Below, piece after piece: positions 10,369 through 61,773 of a stretch of DNA of 64,000 nucleotides. Each line of letters opens with the position of its first letter. Within the stretch, counting starts at the first letter, position 1. A program made the position numbers and the translations under genes. The notes beneath the pieces are model-generated. The model saw only the letters and a program-made list of their open reading frames with translations, was not told where the DNA came from and made no database searches. Source of the DNA: an uncultured Lacinutrix sp. (GTDB lineage: Bacteria > Bacteroidota > Bacteroidia > Flavobacteriales > Flavobacteriaceae); NCBI GenBank assembly GCA_937129145.1, contig CAKZMU010000009.1:80551-144550 (forward strand), given 5' to 3'.

Positions 10369-10482
10369 AATTTTAAGTTTTTATATTAATATTTATTTTC
10401 CTATCAAATTTACAATAATGCTTTAAGTTTTGTGTAATTAAGTTATTAAGTTTCCTTATTTTGGTATAAAAATTATCTTTTC

Positions 10483-29627: not shown

Positions 29628-29700
29628 GACAAGGTGGCTGAACGGTTAAGGCAACAGACTGCAAATCTGTTTTTTGTGAGTTCAAATCTCACCCTTGTCT
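29628..29700 (+). tRNA. tRNA-Cys (anticodon GCA)
   Basis: Acceptor GACAAGG/CCTTGTC, anticodon arm ACAGA-CTGCAAA-TCTGT, T arm GTGAG-TTCAAAT-CTCAC, and discriminator U as expected for Cys. Confidence 0.85.
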
Positions 29701-29706
29701 CAAAAT

Positions 29707-29779
29707 AGTATCGTAGCTCAATGGCTAGAGCGCTCGGTTGTCTCCCGAGAAGTTGCGGGTTCGAATCTCGTCGGTACTG
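29707..29779 (+). tRNA. tRNA-Asp (anticodon GTC)
   Basis: Acceptor AGTATCG/CGGTACT, D arm GCTC/GAGC, anticodon arm CTCGG-TTGTCTC-CCGAG, T arm GCGGG-TTCGAAT-CTCGT, and discriminator G. Confidence 0.85.
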
Positions 29780-29780
29780 C

Positions 29781-29844
29781 GAAGCAGTTTAAGAGATGAG
29801 AAGTTTACCCTGAGCGTAGTCGAAGGGAATCTTGTCGGTACTGC
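29781..29844 (+). repeat. conserved 46-nt tRNA-trailer element (copy A) plus an 18-nt duplicate of the tRNA-Asp 3' end
   Basis: 29781-29826 is GAAGCAGTTTAAGAGATGAGAAGTTTACCCTGAGCGTAGTCGAAGG. 29827-29844 (GAATCTTGTCGGTACTGC) repeats 29763-29780 with 1 mismatch. The core matches copy B at 30181-30226. Confidence 0.8.
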
Positions 29845-29848
29845 AAAT

Positions 29849-29931
29849 CTGGGAGGATAATCCCGAAGGTTCGGGAGTGGTTTACTCGCTTTGGAAGCGA
29901 GAGGTTGTAGGTTCAAATCCTACCTCTCAGA
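29849..29931 (+). tRNA. tRNA-Pro-like (anticodon TGG) with a hairpin insertion in the D-loop
   Basis: Acceptor CTGGGAG/CTCTCAG (C1:G72 and A73, as in bacterial tRNA-Pro), anticodon arm CTCGC-TTTGGAA-GCGAG, and T arm GTAGG-TTCAAAT-CCTAC. The D region is about 10 nt too long because of the hairpin TCCCGAAGGTTCGGGA (29861-29876). Confidence 0.6.
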
Positions 29932-29937
29932 CAAAAT

Positions 29938-30009
29938 ACTCCGTTAGTCAAATGGCTAAGACGCCTGACTTTCTATCAGGAATTAAGGGTTCAATTCCCT
30001 TACGGAGTA
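29938..30009 (+). tRNA. tRNA-Glu (anticodon TTC)
   Basis: Acceptor ACTCCGT/ACGGAGT, anticodon arm CCTGA-CTTTCTA-TCAGG, and T arm AAGGG-TTCAATT-CCCTT. Confidence 0.8.
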
Positions 30010-30014
30010 CACAT

Positions 30015-30100
30015 TGAGATATAGCTTAATTGGTAGAGCGTCGCTCTCATAAGGCGAATGGTTTAGGTTCTCCCGATAGTTATCGGGACTAATATCTCAA
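30015..30100 (+). tRNA. tRNA-Met/Ile2-like (anticodon CAT) with a hairpin insertion in the T-loop
   Basis: Acceptor TGAGATA/TATCTCA, D arm GCTT/GAGC, and anticodon arm TCGCT-CTCATAA-GGCGA. The T-stem is TTAG(G)/(A)CTAA, but the T-loop is TTC followed by the 18-nt hairpin TCCCGATAGTTATCGGGA (30071-30088). Confidence 0.55.
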
Positions 30101-30106
30101 CAACAC

Positions 30107-30179
30107 GCAGGAATGGCGAAACGGCAAACGCACTCGACTTAGAATCGAGAAACTGGGAGTTCGAATCTCTCTTCCTGTA
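30107..30179 (+). tRNA. tRNA-Leu-like (anticodon TAG) with a short (5-nt) variable loop
   Basis: Acceptor GCAGGAA/TTCCTGT, a class-II-like D arm (TGGCGAAACGGCAAACGC), anticodon arm CTCGA-CTTAGAA-TCGAG, variable region of only AAACT, and T arm GGGAG-TTCGAAT-CTCTC. Confidence 0.65.
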
Positions 30180-30180
30180 C

Positions 30181-30246
30181 GAAGTAAGGAAAGAGATGAG
30201 AAGTTTATGCTGAGCGAAGTCGAAGTGAATCTCTCTTCCTGTACGA
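30181..30246 (+). repeat. conserved 46-nt tRNA-trailer element (copy B) plus a 20-nt duplicate of the tRNA-Leu(TAG) 3' end
   Basis: 30181-30226 is GAAGTAAGGAAAGAGATGAGAAGTTTATGCTGAGCGAAGTCGAAGT. 30227-30246 (GAATCTCTCTTCCTGTACGA) exactly repeats 30163-30182. Confidence 0.8.
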
Positions 30247-30247
30247 T

Positions 30248-30321
30248 GCTCCACTAGCCCAAATGGAAGAGGCAACAGTTTTAAGCGCTGTTAAGTCCAA
30301 GTTCGAATCTTGGGTGGAGTA
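30248..30321 (+). tRNA. tRNA-Leu-like (anticodon TAA) with a short variable loop
   Basis: Acceptor GCTCCAC/GTGGAGT (G1:U72), anticodon arm ACAGT-TTTAAGC-GCTGT (alternatively AACAG/CTGTT with a 9-nt loop), variable TAAGT, and T arm CCAAG-TTCGAAT-CTTGG. Confidence 0.6.
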
Positions 30322-30327
30322 CAAAAT

Positions 30328-30451
30328 AAGCTTATGGTGTAATGGAAAGCACACAAGGTTTAGCTCATGCATATCTATTTCAAGAAATAGGTATTCGTGA
30401 ATGCAAAGCATTTCGAACCTTGGAGTATGGGTTCAAGTCCTATTAAGCTTA
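30328..30451 (+). tRNA. tRNA-like gene (probably Arg, anticodon TCG) with a 52-nt insertion in the anticodon loop
   Basis: Acceptor AAGCTTA/TAAGCTT, D arm GTGT/GCAC, anticodon stem CAAGG (30354-58) / CCTTG (30418-22) enclosing 59 nt, and T arm ATGGG-TTCAAGT-CCTAT. The last 7 loop nt, TTTCGAA, form a canonical loop. The insert at 30359-30410 contains the hairpin CTATTTC-AAG-GAAATAG. Confidence 0.55.
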
Positions 30452-30456
30452 CAAAA

Positions 30457-30527
30457 TAACCTGTGGTGTAACGGTAACACTCAAGATTTTGATTCTTGTA
30501 TTATAGGTTCGAATCCTATCAGGTTAT
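30457..30527 (+). tRNA. tRNA-Gln (anticodon TTG)
   Basis: Acceptor TAACCTG/CAGGTTA, D arm GTGT/ACAC, anticodon arm CAAGA-TTTTGAT-TCTTG, and T arm ATAGG-TTCGAAT-CCTAT. Confidence 0.8.
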
Positions 30528-30535
30528 CAAAAAAT

Positions 30536-30608
30536 GGAACAGTAGCAAAGTTGGTCAATGCGTCGGACTGAAAATCTGAAAATACAGGTTCAATTCCTGT
30601 CTGTTCCA
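30536..30608 (+). tRNA. tRNA-Phe (anticodon GAA)
   Basis: Acceptor GGAACAG/CTGTTCC, anticodon arm TCGGA-CTGAAAA-TCTGA, and T arm ACAGG-TTCAATT-CCTGT. Confidence 0.82.
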
Positions 30609-30768
30609 CTAAAATTAAAGATTCCTGCCTATGCAGGAAATAATATCAAGCTGGTCTTGTTGAGTGTTTCGGTATAGCACTATTGTATAAATCGTTGCAG
30701 AAATGCATCATGAGTTTATGTTCAACTAGACTTGAAGGTTTTGACTGTTAACCAAAAAATGGTCTCCC

Positions 30769-50791: not shown

Positions 50792-51382
50792 ATGTTTACT
50801 GGTATTATAGAAGATATTGGAATAGTTACAAATTTAAAGAAAGAAGGAGATAATATTAGTATAACTATTGAAAGTAGTATAACCAACGAATTAAAAATTG
50901 ACCAAAGTGTTGCCCATAACGGTGTTTGTTTAACTGTTGTAAACATAAAAGATAAAGAATATACAGTAACTGCCATTAAGGAAACCATTGATAAATCTAA
51001 CATAGGTGGTCTAATGGTTGGTGGTTTGGTAAACCTAGAAAGAGCCATGAAGCTTGGTGATAGACTCGACGGACATATAGTTCAAGGGCATGTAGACCAA
51101 GTTGCAACTTGTATAGACGCAAAAGAGCTTGATGGAAGTTGGGAATACACTTTTAGGTATGACGCTTCACTAGAAAACATTACCATCGAAAAAGGTTCTA
51201 TCACTGTTAATGGCGTAAGCCTAACTGTGGTTAATTCTAAAAAAGACACTTTTAGCGTCGCTATTATACCTTATACTCACGAGCACACAAATTTTAATAC
51301 TCTAGCAAATGGAACTATTGTTAATTTGGAATTTGATGTAATAGGGAAATACGTGAGCAAGCTTCAGAAAAAGACAGCTTAA
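50792..51382 (+). CDS. ribE: riboflavin synthase
   Basis: MFTGIIE N-terminus and the duplicated lumazine-binding repeat (GVCLTV / GVSLTV). Confidence 0.92.
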   Translation: MFTGIIEDIGIVTNLKKEGDNISITIESSITNELKIDQSVAHNGVCLTVVNIKDKEYTVTAIKETIDKSNIGGLMVGGLVNLERAMKLGDRLDGHIVQGHVDQVATCIDAKELDGSWEYTFRYDASLENITIEKGSITVNGVSLTVVNSKKDTFSVAIIPYTHEHTNFNTLANGTIVNLEFDVIGKYVSKLQKKTA

Positions 51383-51576
51383 CGTTTAGATTTTGATTTA
51401 ATAAAACCTAAATGTTTTATCGCTCCGTAAACAAGTGCTAAGACAAACACAAAAACTACAGCACCGTCAATAGGCAGTCCAACTGGTGGTGGTCCCGAAG
51501 GCGGCGGCGGTACAGGTCCTCCCTGATAGGCGTAAGCCATATTAGAAAAAACAAATAAGATTTGGGTTATTTTCAT
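51379..51576 (-). CDS. 65-aa protein made of a signal peptide plus a PID-type C-terminal sorting-like domain
   Basis: MKITQILFVFSNMAYA (signal), a Pro/Gly-rich linker, then the motif LPIDG followed by a hydrophobic helix and a basic tail (KSKSKR). Confidence 0.5.
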   Translation of the reverse strand: MKITQILFVFSNMAYAYQGGPVPPPPSGPPPVGLPIDGAVVFVFVLALVYGAIKHLGFIKSKSKR

Positions 51577-51935
51577 ATTGTTTTATGAATCATTTTGCTG
51601 TAAAAGTATGAAAAAAAGCGAGTTATCAAAATTTTTACTACAAAAAACACCTATGAAATGCTCAAAAACATCGATTAAGTGCATTCTAGGTTACAATTGA
51701 CACTAACTAATTGACTAAATATTAAAAGAATTAACTGTGTTTATAATCCCTTTGTTATCCCTTAATATGGCAAAAATAAATATTTTGTATGTATTTTCTG
51801 AAATATTTTTGGGTTTATTGATATCGTTTCAAAAAACGATAGGTTAAAATTTGACACTTACTTGTTTGTTAAGTCACTCCTATTTCTGTGAAAACAAAAA
51901 GGTTTTAGTAAAAAAACTAAAACCTTGCTTTTGTT

Positions 51936-51949
51936 GTGGTCCCACTTGG
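51936..51949. repeat. 14-bp direct repeat of the tRNA(CAT) 3' end (candidate distal att site of an island)
   Basis: GTGGTCCCACTTGG is identical to 61699-61712. On the minus strand it is followed by its own terminator hairpin (GGTTTTAG-TTTTTTTA-CTAAAACC plus a T-run). Confidence 0.6.
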
Positions 51950-52254
51950 AATACTACTAATTACAATTATAGAGAGTGTTGTGGAGTAATACGGAGTTTC
52001 GAATAGATTTATTGTTTACTGAAAGAGTAATAAAGAATACTATAGATGTATAAAGGTTTGAGCATCGATTGATTTTTTTATCCTTTTTGTCAAAATTAGA
52101 AAGGCCATTCCTACAAAAGAATAGCCTTTTCATTTTTATATTATATCTATGTCTTTCATAATTTCTAAAGAAACAGGTGCTACTGGGTTAGAAATCATTT
52201 TAAATACTTGATAGAATTTTGCTAATTGCCCCATAGCTATATATAATTTCACTT

Positions 52255-53379
52255 TTAATTGCTTACTAAAAATCCAGAGTTAAATGCATACTGATTCCAT
52301 TTTGGCAATGGATGAAATTCACTCGCCTGCACATCTCTAAACAAACGTTCTAATTCATTTTTACTGTAATAACTTCCACCTCCAATAAGCTCCATGGCAT
52401 ATTTAACTGTGTCAATACAAGCCTCGCTTACATTTGTTTTTAAGCTTAGAATTTCTGATGATAGTTGTTTGGAAGGTGAGAATTCGAGTTCATCTGTACG
52501 TTCATACATGGCTTTCCATTGTACTTTGGCGCTTAAAAATGCATTGTCCAATTTACCTAATACATAAGGCATATGACCTTGATTTGATGTGTTGTTCTTA
52601 GCAAAATTGATGGCAATTTCTCTAGCACGTTCAGCAATACCAATATAAGCAGACATTATTAATGGCATAGCCACTGTGATTACAATATTCCAAACATTAT
52701 GAAACTCATCTTGTGGTCTTTCTAAAGCAATCGCGCTATCTGGAACAAACACGTCTTTTAAAACTACGGTTTGAGAACCTGTTGCTCTCATTCCCATAAC
52801 ATGCCAATCGTCTAATAGACTTAATCCTTCTGTTTTAAAAGGCACTCCAAAATGCAATACTTTGCGCTCACCTCTTTCATTTTCATAAGGTGCTGAAGTC
52901 ACTAATATGTTTCCTGTAGCTGACTGACTCGCAAATGCCTTTTTTGCATTTACCAAATAACCACCCTCTACTTTAGTCATTTCTCCATTAGAACCCAACC
53001 AATCTCTTGCACCTGTACTTACAAGTACTAATTGATTATCTGCAACATTAGCCAATAATGGTTTGCCTGTGTTTTTATGTTTGTATTTCCAAACTGTAGC
53101 AGCCACAAGGTGTTGATGCATTGAAAACGCTAAAGCTGTTGAACCACAATTATTTCCAAATAGTCTAATAATATTACATACTTCAGAGTAAGGCAAACCT
53201 GCTCCTCCTAATTCTTCTGGAACCATTAAAGAGAAAAACTCATTCGCTTTTAACTTCTCGTAATTTTCATAAATGAATTCACCTGTTTTATCTTTTTCTG
53301 ATGCATATTCTGCAAAAGATTGTGCTAAATCATTAGCTATTTTATTCCAATCTGTATTATTTGATGTTACTGTATTCAT
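52255..53379 (-). CDS. acyl-CoA dehydrogenase-fold flavoprotein (possibly an oxygenase rather than a dehydrogenase)
   Basis: 374 aa with ACAD-like three-domain organisation. The C-terminal ERLFRDVQASEFHPLP aligns with the ACAD ERLYRDARITEIYEGT motif, but P replaces the MCAD-type catalytic Glu. Confidence 0.65.
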   Translation of the reverse strand: MNTVTSNNTDWNKIANDLAQSFAEYASEKDKTGEFIYENYEKLKANEFFSLMVPEELGGAGLPYSEVCNIIRLFGNNCGSTALAFSMHQHLVAATVWKYKHKNTGKPLLANVADNQLVLVSTGARDWLGSNGEMTKVEGGYLVNAKKAFASQSATGNILVTSAPYENERGERKVLHFGVPFKTEGLSLLDDWHVMGMRATGSQTVVLKDVFVPDSAIALERPQDEFHNVWNIVITVAMPLIMSAYIGIAERAREIAINFAKNNTSNQGHMPYVLGKLDNAFLSAKVQWKAMYERTDELEFSPSKQLSSEILSLKTNVSEACIDTVKYAMELIGGGSYYSKNELERLFRDVQASEFHPLPKWNQYAFNSGFLVSN

Positions 53380-53414
53380 TATTTCTTGTTTTTTATGATT
53401 AATCCTTTTGATGT

Positions 53415-54923
53415 TTATTGGTTTTGTAATTGTAATACGCTGTCGGTTAGCATCTGTTGATGCACTTTATTACCTTCTTCTTCAACAATATCAATGATCT
53501 CTTCAATGTCTTTTTTAGACGTTCTAAAATTGACGATGCAGCTTCTTAAGCAATAATTTTCGTTGATAATAGCATTAGAAATAAACACTTCTCCGCTTTT
53601 TTGTAATCGCGTTGTTAGTTTTTCGTTTAACTCATTTAAGTACACTTGTTTATTTTCTAAATGTTGAGGTATTTCTGAAGGTATATACCTAAACGTCGCG
53701 ATACTTAAACTTTGGGTTACTGCATCAAGGTTTGGGTGTTGATCTGCTAATTCAAATAATAATTTAGACAACTTTATATCTTCAGATATCATTTCTTGAT
53801 AACCTTGTCTTCCTACTTGCTGAAGCATTAACCATACTTTTAATGCTCTAAATCCTCTAGAATTTTGAAGTCCGTATTCATAATAATTTTGTTCAGCATC
53901 TTCTGTATCAAAATTGAAATACTCTGGATGTGAACTATATGCATCAGTTAAATGTTTTGGGTTTTTAACCAAAGTACAACCAGCTTCTAACGGACTATAC
54001 AACCATTTGTGTGGGTCGATCGCAATAGAGTCTGCTTCTTTTATACCTTTAAAAGTTGCTTCTAATTCTGGAATAATATTGGCTGGTGCACCATAAGCTC
54101 CATCAACGTGAAACCACATATGATACAATTTACAAATGGCCGAAATACCTTCTAAATTATCGACTGTTCCTGTGCTTACATCACCAGCAGTACCAACTAC
54201 AAAAAAGGGTTCATTGCCTTCAATAATATCTGTTGTGATTGCGTTTTCTAATGCTTCTAAATTCATTTTATTATCCGCATCAGTTTCTATCCATCTAATT
54301 GCATTTGTTCCGTGTCCAAATAAAATGGCAGCTTTATCTATCCATGTATGTGTTGACTTTGAACAATACATGATTAGTTTTTTCTTCAAAGAACCAAGGC
54401 CTTCTTCTTTAATATTGGCTGGTGCTTTAGCTGTTCGTGCCGCAAGAAATGCTGTGAAATTTGCCATGTTCCCACCACTAACTAACACACCTCCATAATT
54501 AGATTCTACTCCAATAAATTGTGCTAGCCATTGTATGGTTTGCTTTTCAATTTCTGTTGCCATTGGTGATAATGCAAATGCGCCAACGTTAGGGTTTACC
54601 GAAGCTGCTAACAAATCTCCTAATGCTCCAATTGGTGCTGCTGAACCTGTGATATAACCCATAAATTTTGGGTGGCCATTAAATAATGAATGGTTATACA
54701 ATAAATCTGTAGCTTTCTCTAATAAAACTGATGCAGAGGTTCCGTTTTCTGGAAATGATTGATTACCTAATAGCGACTGTAACTGCTTTGGTGTTTCGCC
54801 AGTCGTAACTGGTCGCTCCGAAATAGTTTCGTTAAAACCAGAGATACTATCTATTAAGTTATGTCCTAAAGATTTAAATTCTTTAGCTGTTAATTCTAAT
54901 GGTGCTTTTCTATTATTCTCCAT
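53415..54923 (-). CDS. PLP-dependent group II amino-acid decarboxylase
   Basis: 502 aa with PLP-lysine motif SIAIDPHKW and HVDGAYGA, typical of the aromatic-amino-acid, glutamate and DABA decarboxylase family. Confidence 0.85.
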   Translation of the reverse strand: MENNRKAPLELTAKEFKSLGHNLIDSISGFNETISERPVTTGETPKQLQSLLGNQSFPENGTSASVLLEKATDLLYNHSLFNGHPKFMGYITGSAAPIGALGDLLAASVNPNVGAFALSPMATEIEKQTIQWLAQFIGVESNYGGVLVSGGNMANFTAFLAARTAKAPANIKEEGLGSLKKKLIMYCSKSTHTWIDKAAILFGHGTNAIRWIETDADNKMNLEALENAITTDIIEGNEPFFVVGTAGDVSTGTVDNLEGISAICKLYHMWFHVDGAYGAPANIIPELEATFKGIKEADSIAIDPHKWLYSPLEAGCTLVKNPKHLTDAYSSHPEYFNFDTEDAEQNYYEYGLQNSRGFRALKVWLMLQQVGRQGYQEMISEDIKLSKLLFELADQHPNLDAVTQSLSIATFRYIPSEIPQHLENKQVYLNELNEKLTTRLQKSGEVFISNAIINENYCLRSCIVNFRTSKKDIEEIIDIVEEEGNKVHQQMLTDSVLQLQNQ

Positions 54924-54950
54924 GATGTTTTGTTTTAAAACGTTTAATTA

Positions 54951-55295
54951 TTAAGCCGCTGTTATTAAAATGCGTTCTATACCAGCAAAGCAATTATTCA
55001 TTATAATCCTGTGTTCTTTTTTTGCTCTTACTAGAAGATTTTTTACTTCAAAAAGAAATGCTTGTAATTGATTTTTTGAGTAGTTTTTATCTTCTATTGC
55101 TTTGCATATTTTCTGAATGCCTTGATAATCATTATCAGCATTAAACTCGGTTTGCATTTTATTAATTTCAGTTTCACTAATATGAATAGAGGTGAAATCG
55201 ATATGATTCTTTTTTGTGAAATTTGAATGCATTAAAAATAAAAGCAGATACACTTTTAGTTCTTCTGTTGTCCATGTTGGTTTATGATTTTTCAT
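54951..55295 (-). CDS. hypothetical protein
   Basis: 114-aa ORF between the LRR gene and the decarboxylase gene. No recognisable motif. Confidence 0.45.
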   Translation of the reverse strand: MKNHKPTWTTEELKVYLLLFLMHSNFTKKNHIDFTSIHISETEINKMQTEFNADNDYQGIQKICKAIEDKNYSKNQLQAFLFEVKNLLVRAKKEHRIIMNNCFAGIERILITAA

Positions 55296-55315
55296 GACTT
55301 TGGTACTTTTAAATT

Positions 55316-56170
55316 TTAATTACAGTTTTCGCCAAAAGCTGAGAAACCATCAATACCTGATGACCAGTTTGCATTACTATAAATAGCATCATCTACTTCA
55401 ATACAATAAAGGTTAGAATTAGACCTTGCTTCAAAATCGGTTAAGCTTCCATTGTTTCCATTCTTTACACTTAGGTTTGTTAGTTGATTATTAGAGACGT
55501 CTAAGTCTTCTAATAAACTGTTTTGGCTTAAATCTAATTCTGTAAGTTGATTATGAGCTACTTTAAACCAATACAAATTCGCACTATTCGTAACATCTAT
55601 ACTGGTTAAAAGGTTATTAGAAGTACCTAATCTTACAAGATTTATATTATTTGCTACATCTAAATCTGTTAATTGGTTATTATCGCAGATTAATACCTCT
55701 AAATTTATGTTGCTTCTAACGTCAATACTCGTTAGACTATTTATATAAGCACTAACAGTTTTCAATTCTAAATTGTTACTTAAATCTAAACTTGTAAGCT
55801 GATTGTCTTCTGTATTTAAATTACTTAACTTTAGATTATCGCTTACATCTAAATTGGTTAAACTATTACCATAACATTCTAACACTTCAAGGTTTGTAAA
55901 TGCATCTATACCTTGTAAACTACTAATGTTTTTCTCTGAAACATCTAACTGAATTACAGCTTCGGCATCTGTGATTAAAATGGTTCCGTTTAAGCCATTG
56001 GTATCTATCCCTAAATCGATTAGGGCTTGTTCAAAATTTGAGTCTGGAATGTTGACTTCCGTTCTTTCTGTTTTTTCTACATCATCATCGTTTTTACTGC
56101 ATGATGAGAACATTGTTAGAGCCATTAATAGGCTTAAAATTGTACGATTTGTTGTATTAAGTGATTTCAT
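55316..56170 (-). CDS. leucine-rich repeat lipoprotein (single LRR module)
   Basis: Lipobox (MFSSC), an IPDSNFEQALIDLGID head, about 22-aa LRRs (LT.LD.S.N..L) and a CIEVDD..YSNANW...F.ENC cap. The module is the same as in the neighbouring 1133-aa ORF. Confidence 0.8.
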   Translation of the reverse strand: MKSLNTTNRTILSLLMALTMFSSCSKNDDDVEKTERTEVNIPDSNFEQALIDLGIDTNGLNGTILITDAEAVIQLDVSEKNISSLQGIDAFTNLEVLECYGNSLTNLDVSDNLKLSNLNTEDNQLTSLDLSNNLELKTVSAYINSLTSIDVRSNINLEVLICDNNQLTDLDVANNINLVRLGTSNNLLTSIDVTNSANLYWFKVAHNQLTELDLSQNSLLEDLDVSNNQLTNLSVKNGNNGSLTDFEARSNSNLYCIEVDDAIYSNANWSSGIDGFSAFGENCN

Positions 56171-56255
56171 TATTTATTGTTTTAAATTTGATTTTTGAGT
56201 ATAGGAAGCCACCAAACCTATGACGGCTTCCAAAATTTTTAATATGTGATTTGAA

Positions 56256-59200
56256 TTAGTTTACGACCAGTTTCTTTACTGTTTCGCCTAAATTATTTTT
56301 GATATTTACTAAATATATTCCCGAAGGGATTTGACTAACATTAACAGATTGATTGTTGTTAATTGTTGTTGCCAAAATGCTCCTTCCGTTGAAATCATAG
56401 ATTTTTATTTGCGAATCTTCTTGAAGCCCTTTTACATAAAATACCTCTGATGATGGGTTTGGATATAGACTTACAGTATCAAATATGGATTCTTCATTTA
56501 CTCCTAATGATTCACAATTTTCATCAAAACTTGTTTGCGCATCTATATAACTACTCCAAAGTGCGGTACTGTAAGGTGCGTTATCTACTTGAATACAATA
56601 CAGATTGGGATTATTATCTGCTTCAAAATCAGTAATGATAGTGTTATTGCCATTTTTAACATTAAAACTTGTTAGTTGGTTATTGGCAGCATATATTTCA
56701 ATTAGCACTGTATGATTATTTAAATCCATACTTGTTATTTGATTACTTGCAAAACTTAATTCCTCTAAATCAAGATTGTTACTAATATCTAATGTTGTTA
56801 GTTGATTTTCATACAACTCCAGATATGTTAAATCTGGATTATTACTTACATTTATATTTGTAAGTTGACATGTAGAACATGTTAATGATTCTAATAAAAT
56901 GTTGTTAGATACATCTAAACTACCAATTGCATTTCCGCCTGCGTGCAATTCTTTTAATGCTATATTATTTGATATATTTAAACTTGTTAAATCATTATTA
57001 TTACATATTAATATTTCCAAATCTTCAAGACTATTAATGCCTTCCAGATCTTCAATATCATTATTTCCAATTCGTAATTCTATTAAATTTATAAAGCCTT
57101 CTATTCCTGTTGCATTTGAAATATTTTCATTACCTACATCTAGACTTATTACTGCTTCTGCTTCCGACTGAAGAATATTTCCTGTTAAACCATTATTATC
57201 ATATCCTAAATCGATTAAGGCTTGTTCAAAATTTACATCTGGAATAGCAATAGTTGGAAACGGAACGCTACAGTCTTCGCTAAAATTTGTTTGTGGGTCT
57301 ATAAAGGCACTCCAATTTGCATTACTATAGGCAACATCATCTACTTCAATACAGTATAGACTTGGGTTGTTTGTTGCATAGACTCCATCTATATTAACAT
57401 TATTTCCATTTTTTACATTAAGGTTGGTAAGTTGATTATTAGTTATTGATAATTCAAACAATTGAAGATTATTACTAGCATCCATATTTGTAATTTGGTT
57501 ATAACCAATAAGTATTGAAGATAATGCTGTATTGTTTTCAATATTTAAAACTGTTAGTTGATTATTATCTGCTAGCAACTCGTACATGACCATATTGTTC
57601 CCAAGCAATAGTGTTGTTAATTGATTATGACTGCAATCCAATTGTGCAAGCGCTAAATTATTACTTACATCTAAGCTCGTAAGATTATTGTTTTCACATT
57701 GTAGGGCGCTTAAATTTGTAAAGCCTTCAATTCCTAAAAGACTAGAAATATTTTTATTGTTAACATTAAGATTTGTTACCGCTTCGGCTTCACTTTGTAA
57801 AATATCACCTGTAAATCCATTAGTGTCTATACCTAAATCTATGAGTGCTGTTTCAAAATTATCATCTGGAATAGCAATGGTTGGCGCAGATGCATTACAA
57901 TCTTCACTAAAACTAGTTTGTGCATCAATATTCGTCCAATTCGTATTACTATACGCAACATTATCTACATCAATACAAGTTAAATTAGAATTATTTGTTG
58001 TGCTTATACTCGTAAGCATCGTGTTGTTTCCATTTTTTAAGTTTAAACTTGTTAAATTATTATTAGCACAACTAAAAACTGCTAATGCAGGATTATTACT
58101 CAAATCTAAACTTGCTAATTGGTTTCCCCAAACCCTAAAATCTTCTAACAATATGTTATTGCTAACATCTATACTTAAAATTTCTCCATCAGAACAACGT
58201 AATTCTTTTAAATTAATATTCGTATTTACGTTTAAACTGGTGAATAAATTGCTATAACATTGAAGGTATTCTAATGCAGTTGCATTGCTAACATTCAAAT
58301 TAGTAATATCGTTACTATAGCAATACAATGTTTGTAATAAAGAAAGGTTACTTACATCTAAACTTGTGAGTTCATTAGAATGTACATACATAGTTTCTAA
58401 TACAGTATTGTTGCTTACATTTAGATTAGTTAACTGATTAAAAGGCACACTCAAATAAGTTAATAGTGTATTACTACTTATATCTAAACTCGTTAATTGA
58501 CTATTTATGGCTATTAAATATGTTAAGGATGTATTATTGCTAATATCTATACTTGACAGGTTATTGTTACTACAATCTAACGTTTGCAAAGCAGTATTAC
58601 TGCTTAAATTTAAACTCGTCAAATTGTTGTTACTACAAACAATACTAGTAACATTAACAAAACCTTCTATACCTTGTAGAGAATTGATGCCTTTATTATT
58701 TAGTGCTAACGTGTTTACAGCCTCGGCATCAGATTGTAAAATAAGACCATTTATTGTTCCATCACTGTCTTGACCAGCGTCTATAAGTGCTTGTTCAAAA
58801 TTAGAATCTGGAATAGCGACTGTTTGTGCAGTTGTTGCTGCTATAGAAAACATAGTAAATAACATCCAAAACATAGTTTTGCTTTTCAACTTATTCACAC
58901 GTTTTAAATACTCTTTTTTTGTATTGCTTTTTTTAGGAAATGGAACATACATAGGTGTATTTTCTACATAATGCTTATAAAGGTTTCCAAATTCTTTTCG
59001 TAAATCTTTTTCTTCAAAAAAGGTTCCTATAATGAAATATGCCGATAAGAAAATGGCAAAAACAAGATGAGTTCCTGTCATAACTGGTGTAGCCCAAAGT
59101 CCCAACATGCCTCCAAAATAAATTGGATGTCTCATGTACTTATAAAACCCAACCACTTCAAAATTTAATGGTTTATAAGGTTTTTTCATGATCTCGAAAT

Positions 59201-59657
59201 ACACTTGTCTCAAACCAAAGAAATCTAAGTGGTTAATTAAAAATGTACTGATAAATAGAATAGACCATCCAATAAAAAAAAGAGCATACATAAAGTAATT
59301 TAGAGTAATATTAGAAGACACGTCCCATAATAAACCGCCTAATGGTTGCCATTGTATAACCAAAAAGAATAGCAATAAACCAGAGACTAAAATAAAAGTG
59401 CTGCGTTCTATAGCTCTTGGAAAATAGCTAGAGAAAAAATCTTTGAACCATGGTCTTGCCATGATGCTGTGCTGCACTCCAAAAAGAGCAACTAAAACTA
59501 AGTTGTTAAGTAGTGCTAATAAGAATGGCACTCTTGGTTCTTGGTCGATAGATATTTCAGGTATTAAATGACTTACTGATAATATCCAGTATACGATAGA
59601 GGCAAAGCCAACTAAATAGGCCGCGATTGAATAGATTAACATTGTAAAACTTTTCAT
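56256..59657 (-). CDS. in-frame fusion ORF: ICMT/MddA-like membrane methyltransferase (aa 1-245), then an internal signal peptide, three LRR modules and a T9SS C-terminal sorting domain
   Basis: The N-terminal domain is polytopic and has the RHPIYFGG...EEKDL motif of the isoprenylcysteine/phospholipid methyltransferase family. There is an internal ATG at 58874 (MFWMLFTMFSIAATTAQT). LRR modules cover aa 281-588, 592-797 and 801-1048. The C-terminus is SLYPNPSSEVFYV...GIYLVNI. Confidence 0.75.
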   Translation of the reverse strand: MKSFTMLIYSIAAYLVGFASIVYWILSVSHLIPEISIDQEPRVPFLLALLNNLVLVALFGVQHSIMARPWFKDFFSSYFPRAIERSTFILVSGLLLFFLVIQWQPLGGLLWDVSSNITLNYFMYALFFIGWSILFISTFLINHLDFFGLRQVYFEIMKKPYKPLNFEVVGFYKYMRHPIYFGGMLGLWATPVMTGTHLVFAIFLSAYFIIGTFFEEKDLRKEFGNLYKHYVENTPMYVPFPKKSNTKKEYLKRVNKLKSKTMFWMLFTMFSIAATTAQTVAIPDSNFEQALIDAGQDSDGTINGLILQSDAEAVNTLALNNKGINSLQGIEGFVNVTSIVCSNNNLTSLNLSSNTALQTLDCSNNNLSSIDISNNTSLTYLIAINSQLTSLDISSNTLLTYLSVPFNQLTNLNVSNNTVLETMYVHSNELTSLDVSNLSLLQTLYCYSNDITNLNVSNATALEYLQCYSNLFTSLNVNTNINLKELRCSDGEILSIDVSNNILLEDFRVWGNQLASLDLSNNPALAVFSCANNNLTSLNLKNGNNTMLTSISTTNNSNLTCIDVDNVAYSNTNWTNIDAQTSFSEDCNASAPTIAIPDDNFETALIDLGIDTNGFTGDILQSEAEAVTNLNVNNKNISSLLGIEGFTNLSALQCENNNLTSLDVSNNLALAQLDCSHNQLTTLLLGNNMVMYELLADNNQLTVLNIENNTALSSILIGYNQITNMDASNNLQLFELSITNNQLTNLNVKNGNNVNIDGVYATNNPSLYCIEVDDVAYSNANWSAFIDPQTNFSEDCSVPFPTIAIPDVNFEQALIDLGYDNNGLTGNILQSEAEAVISLDVGNENISNATGIEGFINLIELRIGNNDIEDLEGINSLEDLEILICNNNDLTSLNISNNIALKELHAGGNAIGSLDVSNNILLESLTCSTCQLTNINVSNNPDLTYLELYENQLTTLDISNNLDLEELSFASNQITSMDLNNHTVLIEIYAANNQLTSFNVKNGNNTIITDFEADNNPNLYCIQVDNAPYSTALWSSYIDAQTSFDENCESLGVNEESIFDTVSLYPNPSSEVFYVKGLQEDSQIKIYDFNGRSILATTINNNQSVNVSQIPSGIYLVNIKNNLGETVKKLVVN

Positions 59658-59826
59658 GATTATTTATTTTTAAGTTCGAGACAAACATATTCACGAAAAG
59701 AGTGGATAGCACAAAATTTAATGGATACAAATGGGTGACAAGCGCCTAATTTACGGATGACAAATGGGTGACGAAAAGAAAAATAAATTTATTAACTAAT
59801 TAGTAATCAGTATTTTAATAAATTAA

Positions 59827-61596
59827 TTAAAATGTTTTTAAAAAAGCGTCTAAATCTTCTTCAGGTGACAGATTAAGTTTTTTTCTGAGCCTGTTTCGGC
59901 TCTTTTTTACGGAAGAAGGGTTGATATTTTGAAGTGCTGCTATCTGTTTTGTATCTAAATCTAGTTTGATTAATGAACATAATCTTATTTCCGTTTTGGT
60001 TAAACCTTCAAATTGAGTGGTTAACTTATCATAGAACGAACTGCTTAACGCATCTATTTTGGTATAAAAGTCATCTGCACTTTTATCAACCCAAATTTTG
60101 TTTTTTATTTCGGTATCTAATTCCTCTAACTCTTTGGCGCGTTTTCTGCCTGTTGAGGTTTTTAGATTCTCCATACGTTCTGCTAAAGACAAAGCCCATT
60201 CTTGGTTATTAGATATATTAACAGCAAAATTGGTAAGGTCTTTTTTCTTATATTCTATTTCTGAGTTTAATAATTTATTCTGTAAGTCTTTATATTTCAC
60301 ACGTTGTTTATATCGATAGTATAGTAAACTCATTAAGAAAATAGCAGCTAGACTTCCAAAAATTATCCATTGGCTTTTTGCTCTGTTTTTTGTGTTAAGT
60401 AATGAAATCTCTGATTCTTGAGTTTTAAGTTTTTCCTCTGCAATACGCGCTTCTTTAGCTTTAACAATACTGTCTAATCGCATGGTTTTAGCAAATTCCA
60501 TTTGCTGCAACTGCTTACCAACTTCATCTTTTTTTAAGCTATCATTTAAAGTGGCCATTTCTTCATGATATTCTAAAGCTTTAACTTTATTACCTAAAGC
60601 TTTGTATCCACGATATAGACAATCACAAGCGTTTTTCTTTTGTATTAGACTATTTAATTCGAATGCAATTTTGTAACTTCTTGTACAAGTTTCAATACTT
60701 TTTGAATATGCTTTTTGCTCGAGATAAAGTTCACCTAAGTCGATAACAGTTTCGGATATTAATGGTAGACTCCCTATTTTTTCACGAAGCGCTAAGCTTC
60801 TATTGTAATAATTTAATGCCTCCTTAAGACTTCCTTTTTTTTGATAAACATCACCAATATAACCTAGTGATATTGCTTTATTTCTTGCCAATTTAAGTTC
60901 GCTTGTTCGCTTTAAACTTCTATTAAAATAGTCAAGAGCCAAATTATAATCTGCTTGTTTTAAGTAGGACTTCCCTATATTATTGAGAGTTAATGAATTA
61001 TTCTTATCAATTTCCAAACAACGTTGAAAATAGGTTATTGCTTTCTCACTATTACCTTGATCATAATATAAATCACCAATGGTATTTAAAGTAAAAAATG
61101 TTCTGTTGTTATCTCCTAGTTCTTCACGGATTTTCAGGCTTTTTTGTAAGTAATTTAAAGCTTTTATACCATTGCCTATATCACTATAAACGATTCCAAA
61201 TTTATTGTAAGTTGCTGCTATACCTTCTTTATCTCCTAGTTCTTTTTCAATAACAAGTTCTTTTTCAAAATGTCTAAGCGATTCTATATAATTTCCCTTA
61301 ACCCAATTTGCTGTCCCTAAAGCTTTGTGTGCATGAGCAATGTGCTTTTTAGACTTGATATTTGTCGCATAATCGTATTCTATTTTTCCATAGTATATTG
61401 TACTGTCTGGTTCGGTAAATACTATATTCCAAGAGTACTCTCCTAAGGCATTTAACCTTAAACTATCTTGCTTAGTTATATCGTTCCAAACGGATAAAAG
61501 AGAATCCATCTCTATGTCAAAATCAGTTTTATTTTCTTGACCAAAAGAAGAATAGCTAATCAAAAGAAGAAAAAAAAGTATGGCTCGTTTAAACAT
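59827..61596 (-). CDS. TPR-repeat, single-TM, LuxR-type HTH transcriptional regulator
   Basis: Signal peptide, multiple TPR repeats, a TM helix (WIIFGSLAAIFLMSLLYY) and a C-terminal HTH (TEIRLCSLIKLDLDTKQIAALQNINPSSVKKSRNRLRKKL). Confidence 0.8.
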   Translation of the reverse strand: MFKRAILFFLLLISYSSFGQENKTDFDIEMDSLLSVWNDITKQDSLRLNALGEYSWNIVFTEPDSTIYYGKIEYDYATNIKSKKHIAHAHKALGTANWVKGNYIESLRHFEKELVIEKELGDKEGIAATYNKFGIVYSDIGNGIKALNYLQKSLKIREELGDNNRTFFTLNTIGDLYYDQGNSEKAITYFQRCLEIDKNNSLTLNNIGKSYLKQADYNLALDYFNRSLKRTSELKLARNKAISLGYIGDVYQKKGSLKEALNYYNRSLALREKIGSLPLISETVIDLGELYLEQKAYSKSIETCTRSYKIAFELNSLIQKKNACDCLYRGYKALGNKVKALEYHEEMATLNDSLKKDEVGKQLQQMEFAKTMRLDSIVKAKEARIAEEKLKTQESEISLLNTKNRAKSQWIIFGSLAAIFLMSLLYYRYKQRVKYKDLQNKLLNSEIEYKKKDLTNFAVNISNNQEWALSLAERMENLKTSTGRKRAKELEELDTEIKNKIWVDKSADDFYTKIDALSSSFYDKLTTQFEGLTKTEIRLCSLIKLDLDTKQIAALQNINPSSVKKSRNRLRKKLNLSPEEDLDAFLKTF

Positions 61597-61698
61597 TATG
61601 AATTTTAGTTGGTTGTGATTGAAAAATACTTGCTCTAAGGTAAAGAAAAATATAACGAAGAAAAAAGCCTCTCATTTCTGAAAGGCTTGTGTTTAAAA

Positions 61699-61712
61699 GT
61701 GGTCCCACTTGG
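61699..61712. repeat. 14-bp repeat (tRNA-proximal copy) overlapping the tRNA(CAT) 3' end
   Basis: GTGGTCCCACTTGG is identical to 51936-51949. Confidence 0.6.
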
Positions 61713-61773
61713 GCTCGAACCAAGGACCCTCTGATTATGAGTCAGATGCTCTAACCAACTGAGCTATGGGACC
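61700..61773 (-). tRNA. tRNA with anticodon CAT (elongator Met or Ile2/lysidine type)
   Basis: The reverse complement reads GGTCCCA-TA-GCTC-AGTTGGTTA-GAGC-A-TCTGA-CTCATAA-TCAGA-GGGTC-CTTGG-TTCGAGC-CCAAG-TGGGACC-A. The cloverleaf is GC-rich and canonical, and is followed on the minus strand by a terminator hairpin. Confidence 0.88.

What the first reader, a model, noticed from the sequence alone, without database searches (positions are those of the whole stretch)
51936..61773. About 9.8-kb tRNA-associated island bounded by a 14-bp repeat of the tRNA 3' end, with no integrase
The 3'-terminal 13 nt of the minus-strand tRNA(CAT), plus one nt, read GTGGTCCCACTTGG (61699-61712). The same sequence recurs at 51936-51949 in the same orientation. 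Each copy is followed on the minus strand by its own rho-independent terminator. This fits the classic layout of an intact tRNA, an island, and a remnant att site that retains the original tRNA terminator. The enclosed genes are accessory-looking: a TPR-LuxR regulator, an ICMT-like/LRR/T9SS fusion, an LRR lipoprotein, a 114-aa unknown, a PLP decarboxylase and an ACAD-fold protein. Outside the repeats, core genes resume (ribE and pdxA on one side, mce and rbfA on the other). No integrase or excisionase is present, so the island may be immobilised, or it may have been mobilised in trans.
Basis: partly seen in the sequence, partly recalled or inferred. Interest (0 to 1): 0.55.

Follow-up and report, generated by a model that had tools for sequence, protein, structure and literature searches.

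The report
Integrase-less island at a tRNA
A 9.75-kb block of accessory genes sits exactly between a tRNA gene and a 14-base copy of that tRNA's end, the footprint of a site-specific integrase that is no longer there; it is a real but ordinary kind of decayed mobile island.

Summary
The tRNA(CAT) lies at 61699-61773 (-). Its last 14 nt recur exactly once, at 51936-51949, same orientation, and each copy is followed by a terminator. 19 Flavobacteriaceae loci from several genera have the empty site: rbfA-mce-tRNA, 76-680 bp, then ribE-pdxA. The sequence beyond the distal repeat is homologous to what follows the intact tRNA there. So 51950-61698 is an insertion bounded exactly by the repeat.

In three other genera the same mce-linked tRNA carries 6-7.5-kb elements bounded by the same 14-nt core (16 nt, shifted one base, in one). 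These elements encode a 409-411-aa tyrosine integrase, an HTH_17 protein and a Rep protein. The 14-mer is therefore a real att core.

The window island has no trace of integrase, Rep or excisionase, lacks those elements' GGGGACGA arm repeats, and shows no motif shared between its ends. It is most likely an immobilised, CIME-like remnant.

Its cargo is a TPR/LuxR-like regulator, a MddA-like::LRR::T9SS fusion, an LRR lipoprotein, a 114-aa unknown, a PLP decarboxylase and an ACAD-like flavoenzyme. This accessory cluster occurs at other loci elsewhere, once abutting an RteC/HTH_17 mobile module.

Verdict: new member of a known kind, modest interest.

The parts
61699..61773 (-). Intact tRNA(CAT), called tRNA-Met by ARAGORN; Met versus Ile2 identity was not resolved. 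It is the target gene of the integration.
   Evidence: The same mce-linked tRNA is present in 55 of 80 related loci.
61699..61712 (-). Proximal 14-bp direct repeat (attL core), CCAAGTGGGACCAC on the tRNA strand. It forms the 3' end of the functional tRNA.
51936..51949 (-). Distal 14-bp direct repeat (attR core): the displaced original tRNA 3' end.
   Evidence: The register is the same as the repeats bounding integrase-bearing elements in L003 and L051.
61665..61688 (-). Terminator hairpin just downstream of the intact tRNA. It lies inside the repeats, so it is island-borne.
   Evidence: It resembles native tRNA terminators of other genera (L004, 90% over 31 nt).
59827..61596 (-). 589-aa regulator with signal peptide, TPR repeats, one TM segment and a C-terminal LuxR-like HTH.
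   Evidence: GerE match E 2e-4, 21 bits. An 81%-identical homologue in L165 lies in a different genomic context.
56256..59657 (-). 1133-aa ORF: MddA-like (ICMT/PEMT-family) membrane S-methyltransferase domain fused in frame to a signal-peptide-like segment, LRR repeats and a T9SS C-terminal sorting domain.
   Evidence: (NF045656, 228 bits, cut-off 270). The fusion junction is conserved in L165.
55316..56170 (-). 284-aa LRR lipoprotein.
   Evidence: lipobox ..MFSSC. 51% identical to L081 gene 1.
54951..55295 (-). 114-aa protein with no family match.
   Evidence: Homologues of 40-42% identity sit at the same position in L081 and L165.
53415..54923 (-). 502-aa group II PLP-dependent decarboxylase.
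   Evidence: (Pyridoxal_deC, E 2e-66).
52255..53379 (-). 374-aa acyl-CoA-dehydrogenase-fold flavoenzyme, weakly SfnB/DszC-like. It is the last gene of the island.
51950..52254 (.). Non-coding right end of the island. It contains the ACAD terminator (52100-52129) and about 150 bp next to attR with no detectable relative and no arm-type repeats.
51899..51926 (-). Terminator hairpin following the distal repeat: the original tRNA terminator.
   Evidence: It occupies the position equivalent to the post-tRNA terminators in empty-site loci.
51379..51935 (-). Displaced native downstream region of the tRNA: a spacer with a conserved block, plus a 65-aa PID-CTERM-like ORF (51379-51576). It lies outside the island and serves as the flank marker.

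Best explanation
The segment 51950-61698 (9,749 bp; 9,763 bp with one repeat) is a genomic island. It entered the 3' end of the mce-linked tRNA(CAT) gene by tyrosine-integrase site-specific recombination, with crossover inside the 14-bp core CCAAGTGGGACCAC. The incoming DNA supplied a new tRNA 3' end plus a terminator (61665-61712). The original 3' end, with its terminator and the small-ORF/ribE flank, was pushed 9.75 kb away (51936 downwards). The island has since lost its integration/excision module and any recognisable integrase arm sites, or else it arrived without them by recombination through the conserved flanks. It is now an immobilised, att-flanked remnant of the kind called a CIME. 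What it retains is an accessory cluster of six genes, all on the tRNA's strand (how they are transcribed is not known). These are a TPR/LuxR-like membrane regulator, a MddA-like S-methyltransferase fused to an LRR/T9SS surface protein, an LRR lipoprotein, a small unknown protein, a PLP decarboxylase and an ACAD-fold flavoenzyme. The cluster probably deals with cell-surface functions and small sulfur or amine compounds. Shown: the insertion, its exact limits, the att-core identity, and the absence of integrase and arm motifs. Inferred: the integrase mechanism for this particular island, the loss of the module, and the cargo function.
For: The exact 14-mer occurs twice only. 19 empty-site loci in several genera show rbfA-mce-tRNA, then a terminator and (in 18 of them) the small ORF, then ribE-pdxA. 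The distal flank 51577-51935 and the 65-aa ORF are homologous to that spacer. The same 14-nt core in the same register bounds 6.8-kb and 7.5-kb elements at the same tRNA in Mangrovimonas (L003) and Arenibacter (L051). In Tamlana (L026) a 16-nt repeat shifted by one base bounds a 6.0-kb element. Each element carries a 409-411-aa tyrosine integrase (Arm-DNA-bind_5 + SAM_5 + Phage_integrase), an HTH_17 protein and a Rep protein, with tandem GGGGACGA repeats at both ends. Decay stages of such elements occur at this site: a Rep fragment with degenerate arms in L037, and a 183-bp repeat-bounded scar in L065. The window has no integrase, Rep or HTH_17 remnant, no GGGGACGA, and no k-mers shared between the island ends, whereas the positive controls do share them. 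The cargo is absent from this site in all 80 loci. It is found elsewhere in other contexts: L165 with 76% nt identity, and L084-L087. In L081 it abuts an RteC/HTH_17 module. Island genes have slightly low GC3 (0.21-0.23 versus 0.259 +/- 0.026, p = 7e-4). The CIME definition and the usual 8-60-bp repeats are taken from PMC5704250.
Against: No integrase pseudogene, arm site or other sequence links this island to any particular integrase family, so the integrase step rests on the shared core and register alone. GC and codon usage are not distinct. No conspecific or congeneric genome could be examined: the best mce identity was 88%, and look-ups of the source genome returned nothing. The age of the insertion and any presence/absence polymorphism are therefore unknown. 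The cargo's adjacency to RteC in L081 may be mere neighbourhood, because homology among RteC modules starts exactly at rteC and the upstream genes differ. Only 64 kb of the genome is visible, so a helper integrase elsewhere cannot be excluded.
Confidence: 0.8

Rival explanations
1. The island is still mobile. It would be an integrase-less hitchhiker (a CIME or satellite in the strict sense) whose attL/attR are recombined by an integrase encoded elsewhere in the genome, or by an incoming element that uses the same 14-bp core, for example the Int-Rep mini-elements. It would then be excised alone or in tandem with that element.
For: Both 14-bp cores are perfect. Integrases using exactly this core at this tRNA exist in three related genera. 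Accretion and cis-mobilisation of such remnants is documented in streptococci (PMC5704250). Only 64 kb of the genome could be inspected.
Against: The GGGGACGA arm-type repeats present at both ends of all three Int-Rep elements are absent from the whole window. No motif of 10 nt or more is shared between the two island ends. Only 102 bp of non-coding DNA lies between the tRNA and the first gene. No oriT, relaxase or Rep is detectable. No integrase is present in the 64-kb window.
Confidence: 0.12
2. The island was never integrated by an integrase in this lineage. The whole tRNA-island-repeat-flank block would have been imported from a donor that already carried it, by homologous recombination through the conserved flanks (mce/tRNA on one side, small ORF/ribE on the other). 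This concerns only the route of arrival and is compatible with the best explanation for the origin of the repeat.
For: Integrase-less islands are often exchanged this way (general knowledge). The flanks are highly conserved across genera. The tRNA-proximal terminator resembles native terminators of other genera. GC3 is slightly shifted in the island genes.
Against: There is nothing direct. No close relative is available to test for donor-like flank sequence. The repeat still needs an integrase event somewhere in its history.
Confidence: 0.25
3. The distal 14-mer is the last remnant of a second, tandem tRNA(CAT) gene. The genes between the copies would have accumulated by unrelated insertions and deletions, with no att site involved.
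For: Tandem duplicates of this tRNA exist in three Myroides loci. The tRNA-ribE interval also holds repeat-less inserts in L007, L009 and L020.
Against: Similarity ends abruptly at exactly the same base where the integrase-made repeats of L003 and L051 begin, with no graded decay. No 5' tRNA fragment is present. Tandem copies are seen only in a distant genus and lie about 100 bp apart.
Confidence: 0.04
4. The 14-mer match is a coincidence and the region is simply a variable intergenic hotspot.
For: The site is variable even without repeats (L007, L009, L020).
Against: 0.13 matches are expected even when 2 mismatches are allowed. The word is G+C-rich in a 32% G+C sequence. It sits exactly at the boundary between island and conserved flank, and in the same register as proven att cores.
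Confidence: 0.02

Closest known systems
CIMEs (cis-mobilisable elements) left by decay of ICEs/IMEs, described for the Streptococcus ICESt1/ICESt3 family (review PMC5704250)
   Same: The element is flanked by the attL/attR direct repeat of a site-specific integrase, at the 3' end of a conserved gene. It has no integrase, excisionase or transfer genes and retains only cargo.
   Different: Here only the 14-bp core is demonstrably retained, and arm-type sites are not detectable. Descent from a specific ICE/IME is not shown. The host is a flavobacterium. No mobilisation test is possible with these tools.
Int-Rep mini-elements at the same tRNA(CAT) in Mangrovimonas aestuarii (L003), Tamlana fucoidanivorans (L026) and Arenibacter sp. 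(L051), found here and not matched here to any named family
   Same: Same target tRNA, same 14-nt core and register (one base shifted and 16 nt long in L026), same orientation. Each also carries its own terminator directly after the regenerated tRNA end.
   Different: They are 6-7.5 kb and carry integrase, HTH_17, Rep and GGGGACGA arm repeats. The window island has none of these and shares no gene with them.
Bacteroidota tRNA-targeting integrative elements: NBU1 (tRNA-Leu), NBU2 (tRNA-Ser), the Riemerella anatipestifer 10K island (tRNA-Arg, 53-bp repeat) and ICECleSHZ29 (another tRNA-Met-CAT, 17-bp repeat)
   Same: Integration is at the 3' end of a tRNA gene in Bacteroidota, with short direct repeats and regeneration of the tRNA (PMC5704250, PMC6764341, PMC12561888).
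   Different: All of those encode their own tyrosine integrase. The ICECleSHZ29 repeat (tcccgtcttcgctacaa) belongs to a different tRNA(CAT) sequence.
RteC/HTH_17 modules of flavobacterial integrative elements (CTnDOT-type regulation)
   Same: The closest homologue of the distal cargo (L081: ACAD 89%, PLP decarboxylase 78% identical) directly abuts such a module.
   Different: The window has no RteC or HTH_17. Whether the cargo is part of that element in L081 is unresolved.

Membership tests
tRNA-integrated genomic island made by a tyrosine integrase | Insert present relative to an empty site in related genomes | tested here: met
   19 empty-site loci show tRNA followed within 76-680 bp by ribE.
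tRNA-integrated genomic island made by a tyrosine integrase | Direct repeat made of the tRNA 3' end at both borders, with the tRNA regenerated intact | tested here: met
   Exact 14-bp repeat. Intact tRNA. The flank beyond the distal repeat is orthologous to the native tRNA downstream region.
tRNA-integrated genomic island made by a tyrosine integrase | The repeat is a core actually used by an integrase | tested here: met
   The same core bounds integrase-encoding elements in L003 and L051 in the same register, and in L026 with a one-base shift.
tRNA-integrated genomic island made by a tyrosine integrase | Integrase gene inside the island | tested here: not met
   Pfam on all six ORFs. tblastn with three integrases and 19 other element proteins gave all E > 0.07.
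tRNA-integrated genomic island made by a tyrosine integrase | Atypical composition | tested here: inconclusive
   GC and codon-usage distance are not different. GC3 is slightly low (p = 7e-4).
CIME (cis-mobilisable element) | Lacks integration/excision and transfer genes | tested here: met
CIME (cis-mobilisable element) | Retains functional attL and attR | tested here: inconclusive
   The core repeats are perfect, but no arm-type or shared end motifs were found.
CIME (cis-mobilisable element) | Derived from an ICE/IME by deletion | not testable with these tools
   Only indirect evidence exists: decay stages of other elements at this site, and a cargo homologue next to an RteC module.
CIME (cis-mobilisable element) | Excises or transfers when a related element integrates alongside it | not testable with these tools
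   This needs experiment or population sequencing.
Int-Rep mini-element family (L003/L026/L051) | Integrase + HTH_17 + Rep module and GGGGACGA arm repeats | tested here: not met
IME / ICE | Relaxase, oriT or conjugation genes | tested here: not met
   No such Pfam or NCBIfam hit in any island ORF. oriT cannot be searched without a model.

The most novel reading that the evidence does not exclude
The island is a working integrase-less hitchhiker. The Int-Rep mini-elements that target the same 14-bp core of this tRNA in Flavobacteriaceae would integrate next to it and carry it out as a tandem. That would be a CIME-type accretion system in Bacteroidota, spreading a MddA-like/LRR surface-protein cluster between marine flavobacteria.
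Probability: 0.1. Interest if true: 0.5.

Novelty: new member of a known kind. Interest (0 to 1): 0.3.

Why it matters
The result is a clean, well-delimited example of how a flavobacterial accessory gene cluster became fixed next to a tRNA. It also identifies the mce-linked tRNA(CAT) as a recurrent integration hotspot with a defined 14-bp core across several genera. This helps annotation in two ways: integrase-less islands can be recognised from the att core alone, and the cargo (a MddA-like methyltransferase fused to a T9SS LRR protein, with decarboxylase and flavoenzyme partners) is marked as horizontally mobile. It does not change any concept, because att-flanked remnants without an integrase are well known.

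Tried and rejected
Exact-sequence look-ups of window proteins (mce, ACAD, and the 100%-identical TPR hit P0121) returned nothing. The source genome and its conspecifics could therefore not be inspected.

The metagenome scan with ACAD added only a contig already in hand (L088 = L082) and distant homologues.

I looked for integrase, Rep or HTH_17 pseudogenes in the window with tblastn and found none. I looked for the GGGGACGA arm motif, for extra degenerate att cores inside the island and for shared end k-mers. All were negative.

blastn of the 305-bp right end against all 164 loci found nothing.

I tried to extend the L081 cargo-RteC contig through RteC homologues. The closest modules (L170, L171) share sequence only from the rteC start onwards and have other upstream genes. 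No integrase, tRNA or att core was reached, so the cargo-integrase link remains unproven.

The 12-nt match in L006 lies inside a gene and was dismissed as chance. L007, L009 and L020 have inserts at the site without repeats.

I considered and set aside the decayed tandem tRNA copy and pure chance (see rivals).
Full report
**1. Observation**

ARAGORN places a tRNA with anticodon CAT at 61699-61773 on the minus strand. The 14-mer GTGGTCCCACTTGG occurs at 61699-61712 and 51936-51949, in the same orientation. It occurs nowhere else in the 64 kb, even with two mismatches (0.13 expected). With three mismatches no further copy lies inside the island.

Read on the tRNA strand it is CCAAGTGGGACCAC. That is the 3' strand of the T stem, the 3' strand of the acceptor stem, the discriminator A and one further base. 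CCA is not encoded.

Upstream of the distal copy there is no further similarity to the tRNA. Terminator-like hairpins follow both copies on the minus strand, at 61688-61665 and 51926-51899.

- a TPR protein with a signal peptide, one TM segment and a weak C-terminal GerE/LuxR match
- a 1133-aa PEMT/ICMT-family + LRR + T9SS-tail ORF
- an LRR lipoprotein
- a 114-aa protein with no family
- a Pyridoxal_deC decarboxylase
- an ACAD-fold protein

The flanks are pdxA and ribE on one side, and mce and rbfA on the other.

**2. Is it an insertion?**

A scan of one genome per species with the mce protein returned 80 loci, all Bacteroidota and mostly Flavobacteriaceae. The best identity was 88%, so no close relative was recovered.

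In 55 of the 80 loci a tRNA(CAT) follows mce on the same strand. In 19 of these, ribE follows the tRNA within 76-680 bp, and pdxA and the next four window genes continue in the window's order. These loci are labelled Algibacter, Lacinutrix, Winogradskyella, Tamlana, Flaviramulus, Aquaticitalea, Sungkyunkwania, Flavobacterium and several MAGs.

In these empty sites the order is tRNA, a terminator, a spacer with a conserved block (..GCATTTCATCGATGTTTTT..CTCGCTTTTTTTTATACATTT..), a 59-76-aa ORF, then convergent ribE. The small ORF has a signal peptide, a proline run, GLPIDGG, a TM segment and a basic tail. It is present in 18 of the 19 loci; L063, with only 76 bp, lacks it.

The window has the same terminator-spacer-ORF-ribE series, but it starts at the distal 14-mer rather than at the tRNA. 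The 65-aa ORF is at 51379-51576. The spacer 51577-51935 matches the spacers of L004, L017, L010, L009, L077, L056 and L036 at 71-91% over 30-95 bp.

So 51950-61698 (9,749 bp) is an insertion whose limits coincide exactly with the repeat. None of the 80 loci has any of the six cargo genes at this position.

**3. Is the 14-mer an att core?**

I searched every locus for downstream copies of the tRNA 3' end.
- In Mangrovimonas aestuarii (L003) the last 14 nt, CCAGGTGGGACCAC, recur 6.8 kb downstream in the same register as in the window.
- In Arenibacter sp. (L051) the same 14 nt recur 7.5 kb downstream, also in that register.
- In Tamlana fucoidanivorans (L026) a 16-nt version shifted by one base recurs 6.0 kb downstream.

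Each of these intervals encodes, next to the distal repeat, a 409-411-aa tyrosine integrase (Arm-DNA-bind_5, Phage_int_SAM_5, Phage_integrase). They also encode a ~100-aa HTH_17 protein and a 278-280-aa Rep protein (PF23343), plus variable genes. The integrases are 71% identical to one another and the Rep proteins 77-83%.

All three elements carry a tandem AGGGGACGAATnAGGGGACGA motif at both ends and their own terminator directly after the regenerated tRNA end.

Across 84 loci the core word occurs only at the tRNA end. Second copies are seen in these elements, in L040, in L065, and in the tandem tRNA duplicates of Myroides.

The word is therefore the crossover core of a real integrase family that targets this very tRNA. 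The window repeat has the same length and register.

Decay of such elements at this site is also visible:
- L037 keeps a left end with degenerate arm repeats and a Rep fragment.
- L065 keeps only a 183-bp stretch between two cores.
- Other integrase homologues lie 1-5 kb downstream of the tRNA in L015, L035, L071 and L079.

The site is a hotspot.

**4. What the window island lacks**

- tblastn of 22 proteins from the three elements against the whole window gave nothing better than E = 0.077.
- GGGGACGA is absent from the window.
- The first and last 300 nt of the island share no 10-mer, and no more 9-mers than shuffled sequence. The same test finds the arm repeats in all three positive controls.
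- Only 102 bp separate the tRNA from the first gene. That stretch is essentially a terminator resembling native tRNA terminators of other genera.
- The 305-bp right end holds the ACAD terminator and about 150 bp with no relative in any of 164 loci.
[quoted passage not shown] GC3 is slightly lower (0.21-0.23 against 0.259 +/- 0.026, Mann-Whitney p = 7e-4).

**5. The cargo elsewhere**

The ACAD-fold protein has many homologues in Bacteroidota.

Its closest homologue (89%) lies on three short metagenome contigs. The longest, L081, reads LRR protein, 113-aa protein, PLP decarboxylase, ACAD, then RteC (E 1e-84), HTH_17, a 227-aa protein and a P-loop protein cut by the contig end. Nucleotide identity to the window is 73-81% from 56189 to the ACAD stop and ends there. 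L081 has no att core.

The closest RteC modules (L170, L171) share sequence with L081 only from the rteC start onwards and have different upstream genes. The cargo therefore abuts a mobile module, but it is not proven to be part of it. No integrase was reached.

The TPR regulator has an 80-81%-identical homologue on a 145-kb contig (L165). There it is followed by the same MddA-like::LRR::T9SS fusion (50% identical, junction conserved), the small protein and the decarboxylase. That cluster sits between DUF5694 and OsmC genes, with no tRNA, no core and no ACAD.

A shorter cassette occurs in four further contexts (L084-L087). It consists of the TPR regulator, a stand-alone 244-258-aa MddA-like protein and ACAD.

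More distant regulators are followed by the MddA-like protein, a SAM methyltransferase, a thioredoxin-like protein, DsrE and an Aminotran_5 protein.

The N-terminal 239 residues of the fusion score 228 bits against NCBIfam's methanethiol S-methyltransferase MddA model, whose cut-off is 270. MddA methylates H2S and methanethiol to dimethylsulfide (PMC11445057, PMC5607357).

The cargo is thus a mobile accessory cluster with a sulfur/small-molecule theme and a surface-protein theme. Its exact function is inferred, not shown.

**6. Mechanism**

The most economical reading is the classic one. A circular element carrying a copy of the tRNA's last 14 nt, followed by a terminator, recombined with the tRNA 3' end. 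That regenerated the tRNA and displaced the original end and its downstream region. Review data give 8-60 bp as the usual repeat length for such elements (PMC5704250).

The integrase module and arm sites were later lost. Alternatively, the already decayed island was imported from another flavobacterium by recombination through the conserved flanks. [quoted passage not shown] The caveat is that only the cores are demonstrably retained.

Continued mobility with a helper integrase cannot be excluded from 64 kb. The missing arm sites argue against it, at least for the Int-Rep family. A decayed tandem tRNA copy and pure chance are both unlikely, because the repeat starts at the same base as the integrase-made repeats of L003 and L051 and lies exactly on the island/flank boundary.

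**7. Comparison and verdict**

The island works like, and structurally qualifies as, an att-flanked integrase-less remnant at a tRNA gene. It is not a member of the Int-Rep element family, whose defining features were tested and not met. It is also not an IME or ICE.

tRNA-3'-end integration with short repeats is well known in Bacteroidota:
- NBU1 and NBU2 (PMC5704250)
- the Riemerella 10K island with a 53-bp repeat (PMC6764341)
- an ICE at a different tRNA-Met-CAT with a 17-bp repeat (PMC12561888)

It is a new member of a known kind, and I score interest at 0.3.

Noticed in passing
window 51379-51576 (-), and the tRNA-ribE spacer of L004, L008, L010, L014, L017, L021, L027, L036, L047, L056, L058, L061, L067, L070, L072, L075, L077, L078: A conserved stand-alone 59-76-aa ORF consists only of a signal peptide, a proline run, GLPIDGG, a TM helix and a basic tail. 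It gives a weak NCBIfam PID_CTERM match (E 0.002, below cut-off). It is preceded by a conserved block (..CTCGCTTTTTTTTATACATTT..). In effect it is a protein-sorting signal with no passenger domain, kept next to this tRNA across genera.
   Followed up: partly
window 56256-59657 (-); L165:11927-15430: A multi-pass MddA-like membrane S-methyltransferase is fused in frame to a signal-peptide-like segment, about 800 aa of LRR repeats and a T9SS C-terminal sorting domain. The fusion, junction included, is conserved at 50% identity in another organism, while other genomes have the methyltransferase alone (244-258 aa). The topology is odd for a T9SS substrate. Internal cleavage or an internal start is possible.
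   Followed up: partly
L003:10535-17339, L026:10533-16554, L051:10706-18248: A family of 6-7.5-kb integrative mini-elements sits at the mce-linked tRNA(CAT). They carry a tyrosine integrase, HTH_17, a rolling-circle-type Rep (PF23343), variable cargo (for example an HNH protein), tandem GGGGACGA repeats at both ends and a 14-nt core repeat (16 nt in L026). They were not matched here to any named element.
   Followed up: partly
L065:10712-10908; L037:10571-10901; L040:10541-11901: Other remnants occur at the same tRNA: a 183-bp stretch between two 15-nt cores (L065), a decayed Int-Rep left end with a Rep fragment (L037), and a 47-nt repeat (32 nt of the tRNA plus 15 nt downstream) enclosing a single 326-aa ORF (L040).
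   Followed up: partly
L084, L085, L086, L087, L167, L168 (around the matched genes): The TPR/LuxR-like regulator and the MddA-like protein form a conserved pair. It is followed either by the ACAD-fold protein or by a SAM methyltransferase, a thioredoxin-like protein, DsrE and an Aminotran_5 protein. This is a variable accessory cassette with a sulfur theme, found in many chromosomal contexts.
   Followed up: partly
L081:3950-6498, L170:2974-5695, L171:9936-12826: An RteC-HTH_17-218/227-aa-P-loop module is widespread in marine Flavobacteriaceae (1,306 RteC homologues with E <= 1e-40). Sequence homology between copies starts exactly at the rteC start codon, with unrelated genes upstream.
   Followed up: partly
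L031, L038, L053 (about 10472-10656): The three Myroides loci carry the mce-linked tRNA(CAT) as a tandem duplicate about 100 bp apart.
   Followed up: no
window 61699-61773: ARAGORN calls the tRNA Met. A CAT anticodon cannot distinguish elongator tRNA-Met from tRNA-Ile2 (lysidine-modified). From memory only, the acceptor stem GGTCCCA resembles bacterial tRNA-Ile2. This was not tested.
   Followed up: no
window 29628-30609: A cluster of seven tRNA genes (Cys, Asp, Glu, Leu, Leu, Gln, Phe) lies on the plus strand. It is unrelated to the finding.
   Followed up: no
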